DNA from: a virus
Taxonomy: Duplodnaviria; Heunggongvirae; Uroviricota; Caudoviricetes
IMG/VR virus record: IMGVR_UViG_2713896908_000004
Reading direction: 5' to 3' (one strand)
Length of the DNA stretch: 14,162 bases
Below, piece by piece: positions 10,601-13,600 of the stretch (within the stretch, counting starts at the first letter, position 1; every line of letters begins with the position of its first letter). A program made the position numbers.

Positions 10601-13600
10601 GCGGTAAGCACTTTCTTGATACTTCAGGGCGCCAGCTGTAACGATTTCCAATCGATAGGCGTCTTTCTCTGGGATAACTTCTTTCCACTGAGAGACTGCT
10701 GCATCGCTAATGCCTAGTGCTTTAGCAACAGCACGCTGGGTTCCGAAGTGGTCAATAACATCTTTTTTGTACATAGACTCGCTCCGAAATTAAAGGGCAC
10801 TTAAATTATCTGCTAAAGGAATCTTAAGTCAAGTTTATTTAAGATGTCTTAACTATGAATACACAACTGATGGGTGAGCGTATTCGCGCTCGCAGAAAAG
10901 AACTCAAGATTAGGCAGGCTGCCCTTGGCAAGATGGTTGGCGTGTCTAATGTTGCTATTTCCCAATGGGAGCGATCTGAAACTGAGCCCAATGGCGAAAA
11001 CCTATTGGCCTTAGCCAAGGCTTTGCAGTGCTCCCCTGATTACCTGTTGAAAGGAGAGGATAGTCTTTCAAACATTGCCTATCACAGCAGGCATGCTCCA
11101 AGAGGTTCGTATCCTCTAATTAGTTGGGTAAGCGCAGGATGTTGGATGGAAGCTGTAGAGCCATATCATAGGCGTGCAATAGATAACTGGTACGACACAA
11201 CGGTAGATTGTTCTGAAGACTCTTTTTGGCTCGACGTTAAAGGCGACTCAATGACTGCCCCGGCAGGACTGAGTATTCCTGAGGGGATGATTATTCTCGT
11301 CGACCCAGAAGTCGAACCACGTAATGGAAAGCTGGTAGTCGCCAAACTTGAAGGAGAAAACGAGGCGACATTCAAAAAGTTAGTTATTGATGCCGGTAGA
11401 AAATTCCTGAAACCACTCAATCCACAATACCCAATGATTGAAATCAATGGGAACTGTAAAATCATTGGCGTTGTCGTTGATGCCAAGCTAGCAAACCTTC
11501 CTTAAGGGGCTTTCGCCCCTTTTTTATTTCCCGTTAAAAATCAAAGACAAACTAAATTCACGCCCATAAAATTAAGTTTTCTTCAAAAATACAGTTGACC
11601 TACAAATTAAGAAGTCTTAAATTTAAGCCATCAGCAGGACGCTGGAAGCCAAACGGAACAGATTGGCAGGCTCTTTAACATCGACGAACTCTCAACCTAA
11701 CCGTTGAGACCAGAACTTGAGTGGTTTTGGGGATGGCGCGAATTGCAGCTGCAAGACAGCGATCGAGAAGATAAGCACCTCGACGCGTCATGCGCCAAAG
11801 CCACTTAAAGGAGACCATCATGGTAACCATAGTCTGGAAAGAATCCAAAGGTACAGCAAAAAGCCGCTACAAAGCTCGCAGAGCAGAACTTATTGCCGAG
11901 CGACGAAGTAATGAAGCACTGGCGCGAAAAATTGCGCTAAAGCTCTCTGGTTGCGTCAGAGCAGACAAAGCAGCATCACTGGGAAGCCTTTGCTACAAGA
12001 AGAAAGAAGAATTCGTTCGAAAAAATAGAAGTATTTATTACAAGGATTCAAACCCATTAGGAAACAAAATACATGCAGTCCAAAAAATAAAATTGTACAG
12101 TAAACCACCGTACGGTGCTTATTGAGTATGCTTATGGTGAAAAAGACTATTTATGTTAATCCTGACCGCGGACAAAACAGAAAAGTATCTGATAGAGGCC
12201 TTACATCTCGAGACAGGAGGAGAATAGCGAGATGGGAAAAGAGGATAGCATATGCATTAAAAAACGGTGTAACACCTGGATTTAATGCTATAGATGACGG
12301 TCCTGAATATAAGATTAATGAAGACCCAATGGACAAAGTTGACAAAGCATTAGCAACACCATTTCCTCGCGATGTTGAAAAAATTGAAGATGAAAAATAT
12401 GAGGATGTAATGCACAGAGTTGTTAACCACGCTCACCAACGAAATCCAAATAAAAAATGGTCATAGCCCACTTCGATGGTTTTTTTTATTGTCTGAACTA
12501 ACCGAATTTATTACAGCAAGCCACGCAGTGAAATGGGTGTGACTTGTGTTGGTCGCCAGAAAATGAAATTAGGCAGCAAACCACTTATTTGAGGTGATAT
12601 ATGGAAGAACAGGCAAATAAGATTCTCATAGAACTATTGCAAAAAGCCAGTAATGGAATAGACACGGCTGTCTCATTTATCCAGGCACAGATTCCTGATG
12701 TTGTTCATCAGTTGCTGCTATGGAATATGGTTGACAGTCTGATTAAAACATTAATAGCCATTTTAACAATCCCGCTGGTTTTCTGGTTTATGAAGAAACA
12801 GTACCAAAAAGTTGAAATTGGTAAGTTCGATGATGAAGGATGGTCATGGGATAAGGGGAAGACTAAATACAAACCGACTATGATTTGGGAAAGTAACGGT
12901 GAGATTAGTTTTCTAATCTTACCATTAGCTGCAGTTTTTGTTCTGTGGGTAAATTTTATTATTGCTGTAGCAATCAATATGACTTGGTTAAAAATTTGGC
13001 TGGCCCCAAAGCTTTACCTTATCGAATATGCAGCATCATTGGTTAAGTAATTTTAGGCCGCATAGTCGGCCTTTATTTTTGGCATAAACAACAGAATAAA
13101 CACTGCACTGTGTATTCATTCCAACGAGTGAATACACGGAGCAATGTCGCTCGTAACTAAACAGGAGCCGACTTGTTCTGATTATTGGAAATCTTCTTTG
13201 CCCTCTAATGTGAGGGCGATTTTTTATCTATGAGGATATGAATAGATGTCAAACATCAAAAAATACATCATTGATTACGACTGGAAAGCATCAATAGAAA
13301 TTGAAATCGACCATGACGTAATGACAGAGGAAAAACTTCACCAGATTAATAATTTCTGGTCAGACTCTGAATACCGGCTCAATAAACACGGCTCTGTATT
13401 AAATGCTGTATTAATCATGCTGGCGCAACATGCTCTGCTTATAGCAATTTCAAGCGACTTAAATGCATATGGTGTTGTGTGTGAGTTCGACTGGAATGAT
13501 GGAAATGGTCAGGAAGGATGGCCTCCAATGGATGGTAGCGAAGGAATAAGAATTACCGATATCGATACATCAGGAATATTTGATTCAGATGATATGGCTA

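What the first reader, a model, noticed from the sequence alone, without database searches (positions are those of the whole stretch)
12033..12592. N antiterminator 3' end replaced, with an in-frame copy of the displaced C-terminus 470 bp downstream flanking an inserted ORF
The 10-mer ATTTATTACA occurs at 12033..12042 inside N and again at 12506..12515, in the same codon phase. After the first copy N continues KDSNPLGNKIHAVQKIKLYSKPPYGAY-stop. After the second copy the reading continues SKPRSEMGVTCVGRQKMKLGSKPLI-stop, which is what I recall as the phage 21 N C-terminus, and its end is about 75 percent identical to the end of the current N. Between the copies lies a roughly 112-codon ORF of unknown function. 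This looks like a recombination that gave N a new C-terminal tail and brought in a passenger gene. The N C-terminal region is the part that contacts RNA polymerase in lambda N, so the swap could alter antitermination. The N to cIII interval is a known accessory-gene slot in lambdoid phages.
Basis: partly seen in the sequence, partly recalled or inferred. Interest (0 to 1): 0.7.

Follow-up and report, generated by a model that had tools for sequence, protein, structure and literature searches.

The report
Nun exclusion gene nested in N
The "unknown" inserted gene is the well-studied phage HK022 Nun protein, which lets a resident prophage block infection by phage lambda. The duplicated end of the N gene beside it is real, but it is the usual recombination scar found at nun genes in hundreds of E. 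coli prophages, so the locus is ordinary.

Summary
ATTTATTACA occurs at 12033-12042 and 12506-12515 in the same codon phase. The second copy opens a non-coding copy of the phage 21 N C-terminus (85/87 nt identical to phage 21).

- The roughly 112-codon ORF (12128-12466) is not unknown. It is HK022 Nun, the transcription-arrest factor that excludes phage lambda (108/109 residues identical to PDB 6ALG chain N).
- The promoter hexamers annotated for nun in HK022/O276 lie unchanged inside the coding sequence of N's "new" tail.
- That tail is a natural N C-terminus, also used by Salmonella phages ES18 and L.
- The arrangement N, nun, N-tail fragment is not specific to this window. It is in 213 of 5,426 complete E. 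coli genomes, in plaque-forming phages (mEp235, mEpX1, Kapi1, PA28) and in about 77 other contigs. GenBank records already annotate N and Nun there.
- HK022 itself keeps a truncated copy of the same tail upstream of nun.
- Nun homologs only 45-67% identical are also followed by N-tail fragments of lambda, ES18 or P22 type. The fragments are mosaic with live N alleles.

I read this as a nun cassette flanked by N homology that moves between N-dependent phages by recombination. The system is already known. The family-wide scar, and the hint that Nun descends from N, add modest interest.

The parts
11670..11709 (+). nutL of phage 21 type: boxA GCTCTTTA(AC) at 11670-11679 and the boxB hairpin TCTCAACCTAACCGTTGAGA at 11690-11709.
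   Evidence: 98-100% identical to the annotated boxA-L/nutL of phage 21. The hairpin folds as a 7-bp stem with a 6-nt loop. No lambda-type boxB is present anywhere in the window at up to 3 mismatches.
11820..12125 (+). N antiterminator gene (101 aa), a chimera. Codons 1-61 (11820-12002) are phage 21 type, including the arginine-rich RNA-binding motif (ARM). Codons 62-101 (12003-12125) are the ES18/L-type C-terminal tail, called 'tail X' in this report.
   Evidence: PHROG 271 N-like, E 2e-30. 216/223 nt identical to phage 21 up to 12002, then 28/40. The tail aligns with ES18 gp54 and phage L gp24. The ORF is intact in 67/67 related loci.
12073..12101 (+). Constitutive nun promoter (P_Nun) inside the N tail coding sequence: -35 ATGCAG at 12073-12078 and -10 TACAGT at 12096-12101.
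   Evidence: Identical in sequence to the '-35/-10 nun gene promoter' features annotated in phage O276, which carries the HK022 immunity region. Assigned by homology only. The simple consensus scan did not call it.
12128..12466 (+). nun, the HK022-type Nun transcription arrest / lambda exclusion factor (112 codons). It starts 2 nt after the N stop codon.
   Evidence: 108/109 residues identical to PDB 6ALG chain N and identical to the 1HJI ARM peptide. PHROG 5632 'Nun-like transcription termination factor', E 4.5e-71. 96% nt identity to HK022, HK75 and O276.
12467..12488 (+). Degraded intrinsic terminator of nun: CCCAC-TTCG-ATGGT followed by T8.
   Evidence: Relatives have a perfect hairpin: mEp235 CCCAC/GTGGG at -10.3 kcal/mol and HK022 CCCGC/GCGGG at -11.8 kcal/mol, which differ by compensatory changes. 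The window folds at only -2.4 kcal/mol.
12489..12499 (+). Junction spacer (ATTGTCTGAACT), which contains the in-frame TGA at 12494-12496 that closes the fragment's frame on its 5' side.
   Evidence: The motif TTTTTTATTGNCT after the terminator is shared by mEp235, L069, L102 and L098.
12500..12592 (+). Non-coding fragment of a phage 21-type N 3' end (NRIYYSKPRSEMGVTCVGRQKMKLGSKPLI*). It has no start codon in frame upstream of the internal ATG.
   Evidence: 85/87 nt identical to the phage 21 N tail. Present with an open frame in 77 loci, as 23 peptide variants with mosaic 3' ends. One common variant is identical to the live N tail of phage SH2026Stx1.
12033..12042 (+). First copy of the 10-mer (codons I-Y-Y of N).
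12506..12515 (+). Second copy of the 10-mer (codons I-Y-Y of the N-tail fragment).
   Evidence: Many related loci have ATTTACTACC here, so the exact 10/10 match is particular to this lineage.
12593..13050 (+). Downstream module. The Shine-Dalgarno sequence GAGGTGAT follows the fragment's stop codon directly, then comes a 149-aa ORF (12601-13050) of unknown function with hydrophobic stretches.
   Evidence: PHROG 3054, unknown function, E 2.6e-58. Phage 21 similarity ends at about 12617. Other loci carry other genes at this position.

Best explanation
What it is (shown). The region is the N-nun module of a lambdoid prophage with phage 21-type nut sites. N (11820-12125) is a natural mosaic. It has the phage 21 RNA-binding half, which matches the 21-type boxB hairpins of nutL and nutR, and an ES18/L-type C-terminal tail. 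Two bases after its stop codon lies nun, which encodes the HK022 Nun protein.

How nun works (from the published work on HK022). In a lysogen nun is transcribed from its own weak constitutive promoter. That promoter sits inside the last 50 bp of the N coding sequence. Nun binds the boxB hairpin of a superinfecting lambda-type phage through its arginine-rich motif. Its C-terminal peptide then enters the RNA polymerase cleft and arrests transcription, so the incoming phage is excluded. The resident phage is spared because its own boxB hairpins are 21-type.

The fragment (inferred to be non-functional). The 93-bp piece after nun (12500-12592) is a non-coding copy of a phage 21-type N tail.

How it arose (inferred). 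The unit [N tail X, nun, terminator, short N-tail stub] moved into a phage 21-type N gene by two crossovers. The left one fell in the conserved middle of N, near 12003. The right one fell between the donor's stub and the recipient's own N tail, near 12500. N therefore took the donor's tail, and the recipient's tail was left downstream as a scar. Because the scar stays homologous to live N genes, it keeps recombining with them. This explains its mosaic and protein-like appearance, and it lets nun move between N-dependent phages and join different downstream gene sets.
For: Identity of nun:
- 108/109 residues identical to the solved Nun chain; the ARM peptide is identical.
- PHROG Nun family, E 4.5e-71.
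- 96% nt identity to HK022.

Promoter: the hexamers are identical to the annotated O276/HK022 nun promoter.

Own nut sites: they are 21-type and no lambda-type boxB is present.

The N tail is a normal allele:
- ES18 gp54 reads HDANPLGNKIHAVQRIKLNSKPLI and L gp24 reads RDVNPLGNKIHAVQKQRGKSIPAYYD.
- N is intact in 67/67 loci, and in plaque-forming mEp235, mEpX1, Kapi1 and PA28.

Breakpoints:
- 96.9% identity to phage 21 up to 12002, 70% over 12003-12042, and 97.7% again over 12506-12592.
- HK022 similarity spans about 12008-12472.

Spread: 213 of 5,426 E. coli genomes and 22 phage records hold at least 80% of the block.

Module shuffling. All four combinations exist:
- N with fragment: most loci.
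- N without fragment: L068.
- putL without fragment: HK022.
- putL with fragment: L055, L057.
Three different 5' types are joined to the same tail X-nun unit.

Recombination within the fragment:
- Its 3' parts switch between GRQKMKLGSKPLI, GRQKQRGKSIPAYYD and GRQKTKGKSIALI at different points, each with a different downstream flank.
- One variant is identical to a live N tail.

Age of the architecture:
- L102 (Nun 65% identical) has N with tail X, nun, a terminator and a lambda-type fragment. L069 has the same right-hand side.
- The terminator hairpins differ by compensatory changes, which argues that the terminator is functional.
Against: - No expression or exclusion data exist for this prophage. 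The promoter is assigned only by identity to an annotation, and the generic promoter scan did not find it.
- The nun terminator is weakened in this window, so the unit is not a clean promoter-gene-terminator cassette here.
- The right-hand crossover and the 'refreshing' of the fragment are inferred from mosaic patterns. No formal recombination analysis was run.
- Fragments of P22 type (L094) and ES18 type (L099) cannot derive from a lambda/21-type stub by homologous exchange alone. At least some junctions must therefore be independent illegitimate events, or the history is older and more complex.
- That Nun spares 21-type nut sites is taken from my memory of Robert et al. 1987. It was not tested here.
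Confidence: 0.8

Rival explanations
1. The fragment is a fossil of nun itself. On this reading Nun arose from an N gene whose polymerase-binding tail was displaced by a block encoding the arrest peptide, a stop codon and a terminator. The N-tail piece after nun would then be the tail of that ancestral N, not of the upstream N. This is compatible with later recombinational refreshing, and it would describe the origin of the junction that the best explanation treats as inherited.
For: - Nun residues 25-75 align with lambda N residues 1-52, the ARM plus NusA-binding region (29% identical, pairwise E 7e-4).
- 88-aa proteins from Hafnia and relatives bridge the two. They are 54% identical to lambda N 1-52 (E 2e-17) and 44% identical to Nun 25-111 (E 1e-21).
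- In L104 this gene sits in the N position right after the repressor, with no gene called in the 418 nt between them (I did not read that stretch). It is followed by the last 12 codons of a lambda-type N (RQKIRGKSIPLI*).
- N-tail pieces follow nun in nearly every lineage examined.
- The longest piece (L099, VERKNHRTWYKD...) reaches back to the equivalent of lambda N residue 73, as expected if the pieces erode from the left.
Against: - In the window, the upstream N 5' half and the fragment both match the same phage 21 gene at 97%. This is most simply read as one gene split by an insert.
- A true fossil as old as the Nun family should have decayed. Instead the fragments look like live N alleles, so any original fossil sequence has been overwritten.
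- The fragment types differ (21, lambda, ES18, P22).
- HK022, L068 and L072 have none.
Confidence: 0.35
2. One reading: a single recent recombination, private to this phage, replaced the N tail and brought in an uncharacterised passenger gene, possibly changing how N antiterminates.
For: Phage 21 and DE3 lack the block, and the two halves of a phage 21-like N flank it.
Against: - The passenger is Nun.
- The identical junction is in about 77 loci and 213 genomes.
- The tail is a standard N allele.
- The same architecture exists around Nun homologs 65% identical.
Confidence: 0.05
3. The two 10-mers are a target-site duplication made by a transposable element that carries the ORF.
For: An exact 10-bp direct repeat flanks a 463-bp insert.
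Against: - The repeat is the best-conserved patch (codons I-Y-Y) of two diverged copies of the same N tail. The similarity extends beyond it on both sides.
- In many loci the two copies differ, ATTTATTACA against ATTTACTACC.
- The insert holds no transposase gene; it contains only the N tail, nun and a terminator. I did not scan it for terminal inverted repeats.
Confidence: 0.02
4. The N-tail fragment is kept because it does something. For example it could be translated as a small peptide, act as an RNA element, or be needed for expression of the downstream gene.
For: - Its frame is open in 77/77 loci.
- It shows codon-like conservation between lambda-type and 21-type versions.
- Its last bases adjoin the Shine-Dalgarno sequence and start codon of the next gene.
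Against: - No conserved start codon. The internal ATG of the window is absent from L069 and L102.
- In-frame stop codons lie upstream of it.
- Its phase relative to nun differs between loci: the window and mEp235 differ by 1 nt.
- Its length varies from 12 to 34 codons between lineages, and HK022, L068 and L072 lack it.
- No Rfam family matches it.
- Many single-locus variants change the amino acid.
Confidence: 0.06

Closest known systems
Phage HK022 nun locus (Nun transcription termination / lambda exclusion factor; PDB 6ALG, 1HJI)
   Same: - The protein is the same, with 1 substitution in 109 residues.
- The annotated promoter hexamers are the same.
- The same about 118 bp of N-tail sequence lies upstream of nun.
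- The position in the pL operon is the same.
   Different: - HK022 has no N. The 5' two-thirds of the gene is replaced by putL RNA, and the tail piece is non-coding there (its stop TGA has become TGG).
- HK022 has a different, intact terminator and no downstream N-tail fragment; an IS903 follows instead.
Phages mEp235, mEpX1, Kapi1, PA28 and Stx1a-converting phages (GenBank records that annotate 'antitermination protein N' next to 'transcription termination factor Nun')
   Same: The whole arrangement of chimeric N, nun, terminator and 21-type fragment matches at 92-98% nt identity over 93-99% of the 841-bp query. The gene order is identical.
   Different: - They have an intact nun terminator, where the window's is weakened.
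- The genes downstream of the fragment differ.
- None of these records annotates the fragment.
Phage 21 N gene
   Same: - N codons 1-61, the leader and nutL are 97% identical.
- The fragment is 85/87 identical to the phage 21 N tail.
- The immunity region has the same layout.
   Different: Phage 21 has one uninterrupted 99-aa N and no nun.
Morons, in the sense of Juhala et al. 2000 (autonomous promoter-gene-terminator units added between phage genes)
   Same: - It has its own promoter (by homology).
- It carries one lysogen-expressed gene that protects the host.
- Relatives have a terminator.
- It is absent from otherwise similar phages.
   Different: - The unit overlaps an essential gene. Its promoter lies inside the N coding sequence, and it supplies the 3' end of that gene.
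- It is flanked by two diverged copies of the N tail rather than sitting cleanly between genes.

Membership tests
HK022 Nun transcription arrest factor | N-terminal arginine-rich motif that binds lambda boxB RNA | tested here: met
   Residues 22-47 are identical to the 26-residue Nun peptide solved with lambda boxB (1HJI_B, E 5.6e-11). RNA binding itself was not tested.
HK022 Nun transcription arrest factor | C-terminal arrest segment (the last 23 residues, ...HRVVNHAHQRNPNKKWS) that inserts into the RNA polymerase cleft | tested here: met
   Identical to 6ALG chain N over this segment; 108/109 identical overall. The role of the segment is taken from PMC5386594.
HK022 Nun transcription arrest factor | Constitutive expression from the repressed prophage through its own promoter just upstream of the gene | tested here: inconclusive
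   The hexamers at 12073-12078 and 12096-12101 are identical to those annotated in O276. The consensus scan does not call them. Expression cannot be measured with these tools.
HK022 Nun transcription arrest factor | Excludes lambda-nut phages but not the resident phage | not testable with these tools
   Only the prerequisite was checked: the window's own boxB hairpins are 21-type and it has no lambda-type boxB.
Lambdoid N antiterminators (phage 21 subtype) | N-terminal ARM paired with cognate boxB hairpins in nutL and nutR | tested here: met
   N residues 1-57 are identical to phage 21 N. nutL and nutR have boxA plus 21-type boxB hairpins.
Lambdoid N antiterminators (phage 21 subtype) | First gene of the pL operon, downstream of nutL | tested here: met
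   The order is repressor (10855-11505), nutL (11670-11709), N (11820-12125), as in phage 21 and mEp235.
Lambdoid N antiterminators (phage 21 subtype) | Profile match to a curated N family | tested here: inconclusive
   Pfam N_peptide scores 18.1 bits, below the 27.9-bit cut-off. PHROG 271 'N-like' matches at E 2e-30.
Lambdoid N antiterminators (phage 21 subtype) | Phage 21-type C-terminal (polymerase-binding) tail | tested here: not met
   The tail is ES18/L type. The 21-type tail survives only as the non-coding fragment at 12500-12592. N is therefore a mosaic, not a pure phage 21 N.
Moron (promoter-gene-terminator addition) | Own promoter and own terminator bracketing one gene that is absent from close relatives | tested here: inconclusive
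   The promoter is assigned by homology. The terminator is strong in relatives but folds at only -2.4 kcal/mol here. The unit is absent from phage 21 and DE3.
Transposable element with target-site duplication | Transposase gene, and duplication of an otherwise single target sequence | tested here: not met
   The insert holds no transposase gene. The 'duplication' is part of two diverged homologous N tails, and the two copies are not identical in other loci. A scan for terminal inverted repeats was not run.

The most novel reading that the evidence does not exclude
Nun may be a derivative of N. On this reading an N gene kept its RNA-binding and NusA-binding half but had its polymerase-binding tail displaced by an arrest peptide plus a terminator. 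The N-tail fragment that follows nun in almost every lineage would be the footprint of that event. The footprint would be kept looking 'alive' by recombination with live N genes, and it would serve as the homology arm that lets nun move between N-dependent phages. Relatives with other RNA-binding heads exist: a lambda-N head in the 88-aa Hafnia-type proteins, and a phage 21-like head in the second paralog of L100/L101. These would form a family of exclusion factors, each aimed at the nut sites of a different phage group.
Probability: 0.35. Interest if true: 0.55.

Novelty: already known. Interest (0 to 1): 0.3.

Why it matters
For this window, little. It carries a textbook superinfection-exclusion gene in its usual setting, and public records already annotate N and Nun side by side.

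Three points add something:
1. Nun, usually presented as the peculiarity of the N-less phage HK022, is mostly found in N-dependent prophages. It is in about 4% of complete E. coli genomes, including Stx1a phages.
2. The nun promoter lies inside the N coding sequence, so the two genes are physically interlocked.
3. The N-tail scar recurs across the whole Nun family. Together with the N/Nun bridge proteins, it offers a concrete and testable account of how an antiterminator could have become a terminator, and of how the cassette spreads.

Tried and rejected
- Target-site duplication or mobile element: rejected. The insert holds no transposase gene, and the repeat is part of two homologous N tails.
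- Read-through or fusion of nun to the fragment: rejected. In the window the two are in the same frame with two stop codons between them. In mEp235 (1 nt shorter) and in L069 they are in different frames.
- Natural 'revertants', in which deletion between the repeats rebuilt an uninterrupted N (X-type codons 62-71 joined to a 21-type tail): none among 50,697 phage records. The best hits are ordinary phage 21-type N at 81%.
- Rfam: nothing in 11500-13100.
- Pfam: no family for Nun or for the 149-aa ORF.
- The genome-contig scan for Nun was swamped by pattern hits and gave one locus only.
- Literature: three searches found no paper that describes N and nun together or the fragment. Two further searches gave only general background. 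The key older papers (Oberto 1989, King 2000, Juhala 2000) are not in the library, so prior description cannot be excluded.
- Not attempted: structure prediction (sequence identity to a solved protein made it unnecessary) and a formal dN/dS or recombination test.
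Full report
**Observation**

The 10-mer ATTTATTACA is at 12033-12042 and 12506-12515. Each copy starts a codon (ATT TAT TAC) in its own frame.
- N (11820-12125, 101 aa) ends IYYKDSNPLGNKIHAVQKIKLYSKPPYGAY*.
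- The frame through the second copy reads NRIYYSKPRSEMGVTCVGRQKMKLGSKPLI* and stops at 12592.
- This second tail is 85/87 nt identical to the 3' end of phage 21 N.

The similarity to phage 21 starts a few bases before the 10-mer (AACCGA against AACCGT) and continues about 25 nt past the stop codon. The fragment is therefore about 12494/12500-12592.

The 10-mer on its own is not remarkable in this A-rich kilobase, where another exact 10-mer pair exists. What matters is that two diverged copies of the same part of N flank the insert.

**What the inserted ORF is**

The ORF (12128-12466) is HK022 Nun.
- It is 108/109 residues identical to the Nun chain in the cryo-EM structure 6ALG.
- It is identical to the Nun ARM peptide solved with lambda boxB.
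- It matches the PHROG 'Nun-like transcription termination factor' at E 4.5e-71.
- Its DNA is 96% identical to HK022, HK75 and O276 over window 12008-12472.

Nun is the protein by which an HK022 lysogen blocks lambda. Its ARM binds lambda boxB on the nascent transcript, and its C-terminal 23 residues thread into the polymerase cleft and stop translocation (PMC5386594).

**What the 'new' N tail is**

The tail is not an oddity. By tblastn it is the C-terminus of the live N (gp24-type) proteins of Salmonella phages:
- ES18: HDANPLGNKIHAVQRIKLNSKPLI.
- L/ST64T: RDVNPLGNKIHAVQKQRGKSIPAYYD.

N genes are mosaic at this point. VT1-Sakai N has the phage 21 head with a P22-type tail. SH2026Stx1 N has a P22 head with a 21-type tail.

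In 67 related loci the N ORF with this tail is intact in every case. Plaque-forming phages mEp235, mEpX1, Kapi1 and PA28 carry it. I infer that N is functional.

**Link to HK022**

HK022 and O276 carry the last roughly 118 bp of this same N tail directly upstream of nun. It is joined on its left to the putL region instead of to the rest of N. The O276 record annotates the nun promoter inside this piece. Its -35 (ATGCAG) and -10 (TACAGT) hexamers are identical in the window at 12073-12078 and 12096-12101. The nun promoter therefore lies within the coding sequence for the N C-terminus. That this promoter is constitutive in lysogens is my recollection of King et al. 2000, which I could not open.

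**Distribution**
- The block N-nun-fragment covers at least 80% of the query in 213 of 5,426 complete E. coli genomes and in 22 phage records.
- Of 88 fetched loci in which the nun 3' end could be located, 77 have the fragment with the same left junction, TTTTTTATTG(T/G)CTGAAC(T/A)AA(C/T)C(G/T)AATTTA....
- IMG/VR contig L008 is identical to the window across all segments compared.
- All four combinations occur: N with fragment (most loci), N without fragment (L068), putL without fragment (HK022, HK75), and putL with fragment (L055, L057).
- Three different 5' ends are joined to the same tail X-nun unit: the phage 21 ARM, a second ARM type (MTVVITYLADDNARNRRRARR...) and putL.

The unit is therefore a shuffled module, not a private event of this phage.

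**The fragment recombines**

Its 3' portion switches between alleles (GRQKMKLGSKPLI, GRQKQRGKSIPAYYD, GRQKTKGKSIALI) at different points. Each allele comes with a different downstream flank. The frame is open in all 77 loci. The common variant IYYRKPRSEMGVTCVGRQKMKLGSKPLI is identical to the live N tail of SH2026Stx1.

I read this as repeated crossovers between the fragment and intact N genes of other phages. Such crossovers overwrite the fragment with 'live' sequence and join nun to new downstream genes. This is an inference from the patterns; no formal test was run.

**Deeper relatives**

The Nun family is small, with 28 clusters found. The table lists the contexts examined.

| Locus | Nun homolog | What follows nun | Other context |
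|---|---|---|---|
| L102 | 65% identical | Terminator, then lambda-type fragment YKQPGERGVTCSGRQKMKGKSIPLI* | N with tail X directly upstream |
| L069 | 67% identical | Same right-hand side as L102 | A 147-aa ORF lies between its P22-tailed N and nun |
| L099 (Citrobacter braakii) | 65% identical | ES18-type fragment of 34 codons | No N seen upstream on the contig |
| L104, L105 | 88-aa Hafnia-type | Last 12 codons of a lambda-type N | L104: first called gene after the repressor. L105: a P22-tailed N upstream |
| L094 | 88-aa Hafnia-type | P22-type fragment, no terminator | A short P22-tailed N upstream |
| HK022, L068, L072, L098 | HK022-type, 58% identical (L072), or Hafnia-type (L098) | None, or fewer than 10 nt | |

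The L069 fragment is about 77% nt identical to the real lambda N tail, and most differences are at third codon positions. It therefore diverged as coding sequence.

Fragments of unrelated tail types cannot all come from one stub by homologous exchange. Either several illegitimate joins occurred, or the history is older than the present sequences show.

**Is Nun a derivative of N?**

The Hafnia-type proteins align with lambda N residues 1-52 at 54% identity and with Nun residues 25-111 at 44%. Nun itself aligns weakly with lambda N 1-52. Together with the recurrent N-tail piece after nun, this suggests that nun began as an N gene whose tail was displaced. I give this about one chance in three.

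For the window it does not change the proximate reading. The present fragment sequence is phage 21 N tail, and the upstream N head is phage 21 N head, both at 97%.

**Mechanism in this prophage**

Shown:
- The identity of N and Nun.
- The 21-type nutL (11670-11709) and nutR hairpins.
- The absence of any lambda-type boxB.
- The promoter hexamers.

Inferred:
- In the lysogen Nun is made from P_Nun and arrests polymerase on incoming lambda-nut phages.
- The resident phage escapes because Nun does not recognise 21-type boxB. The specificity is as I recall it from Robert et al. 1987.
- After induction, N made from pL antiterminates at its own nut sites.

**Peculiarity of this window**

The hairpin of the nun terminator is broken by two changes. 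It folds at -2.4 kcal/mol, against -10.3 in mEp235 and -11.8 in HK022. Only four of about 50 haplotypes have such changes. P_Nun transcripts may therefore run on into the 149-aa ORF of unknown function.

**Comparison and verdict**

The system is the known HK022-type Nun exclusion factor in the known N-plus-Nun arrangement, which is annotated in mEp235, mEpX1 and PA28.

Novelty: already known. Interest: 0.3.

Noticed in passing
window 12467-12488: The intrinsic terminator after nun is weakened in this lineage. CCCAC-TTCG-ATGGT folds at -2.4 kcal/mol, against -10.3 in mEp235 and -11.8 in HK022. Only 4 of about 50 haplotypes have stem-breaking changes. Lysogen transcripts from the nun promoter may read into the next gene.
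   Followed up: partly
window 12601-13050: A 149-aa ORF with hydrophobic stretches (PHROG 3054, unknown function; no Pfam hit) is translated from the Shine-Dalgarno sequence that directly follows the N-tail fragment. Other nun loci carry different genes at this position.
   Followed up: partly
L094, L098, L104-L106 (proteins P0021-P0028): 88-89-aa proteins from Hafnia and relatives combine a lambda-N-like head (54% identical to lambda N 1-52; Pfam N36) with the Nun arrest tail (...EDVMHRVVNHAHQRNPKKKW). In L104 the gene sits where N would be, with no other gene called between it and the repressor.
   Followed up: partly
L100 2324-2617 and L101 473-766: A second Nun paralog (97 aa) lies immediately after nun. 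It is 35% identical to Nun and has the arrest tail VNHAHQRRPDKKWS, but its first 30 residues resemble phage 21 N (40% identical). It may be a Nun aimed at 21-type nut sites. A full-length lambda-type N with an ES18-type tail lies 500 nt further downstream in L100.
   Followed up: partly
L107 13368-14237 (phage 434, OL657226): Phage 434 encodes, right after N, a 289-aa 'Nun C-terminal peptide-containing protein'. PHROG 12139 matches Nun residues 84-112. The arrest peptide therefore also occurs fused to an unrelated, larger protein.
   Followed up: no
L004, L066, L070, L089-L091: The same tail X-nun unit is joined to an N with a different RNA-binding head (MTVVITYLADDNARNRRRARRQAQREQ...). This shows a recombination boundary in the conserved middle of N (..RKIALKLSGCVRADKAASLG..).
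   Followed up: partly
window 1548-1776 (- strand): Three tandem tRNA genes (Rfam tRNA, 39-72 bits).
   Followed up: no
window 13674-13732: The lambda cIII thermoregulator RNA element (Rfam RF01804, 88.5 bits) lies upstream of a Kil-family ORF (13694-13963). An Ea10/DUF2528 gene is at 13246-13614.
   Followed up: no
window 514-523: A third exact copy of ATTTATTACA, far from the N region. I treat it as chance.
   Followed up: no
window 1-10500 compared with phage 434 (L107): Much of the rest of the window is about 97% identical to phage 434, whose record annotates an LpxR-like outer-membrane lipid A deacylase in the matching region. I did not check which window ORF corresponds to it. The prophage is a 434-like backbone with a phage 21-like immunity region.
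   Followed up: no
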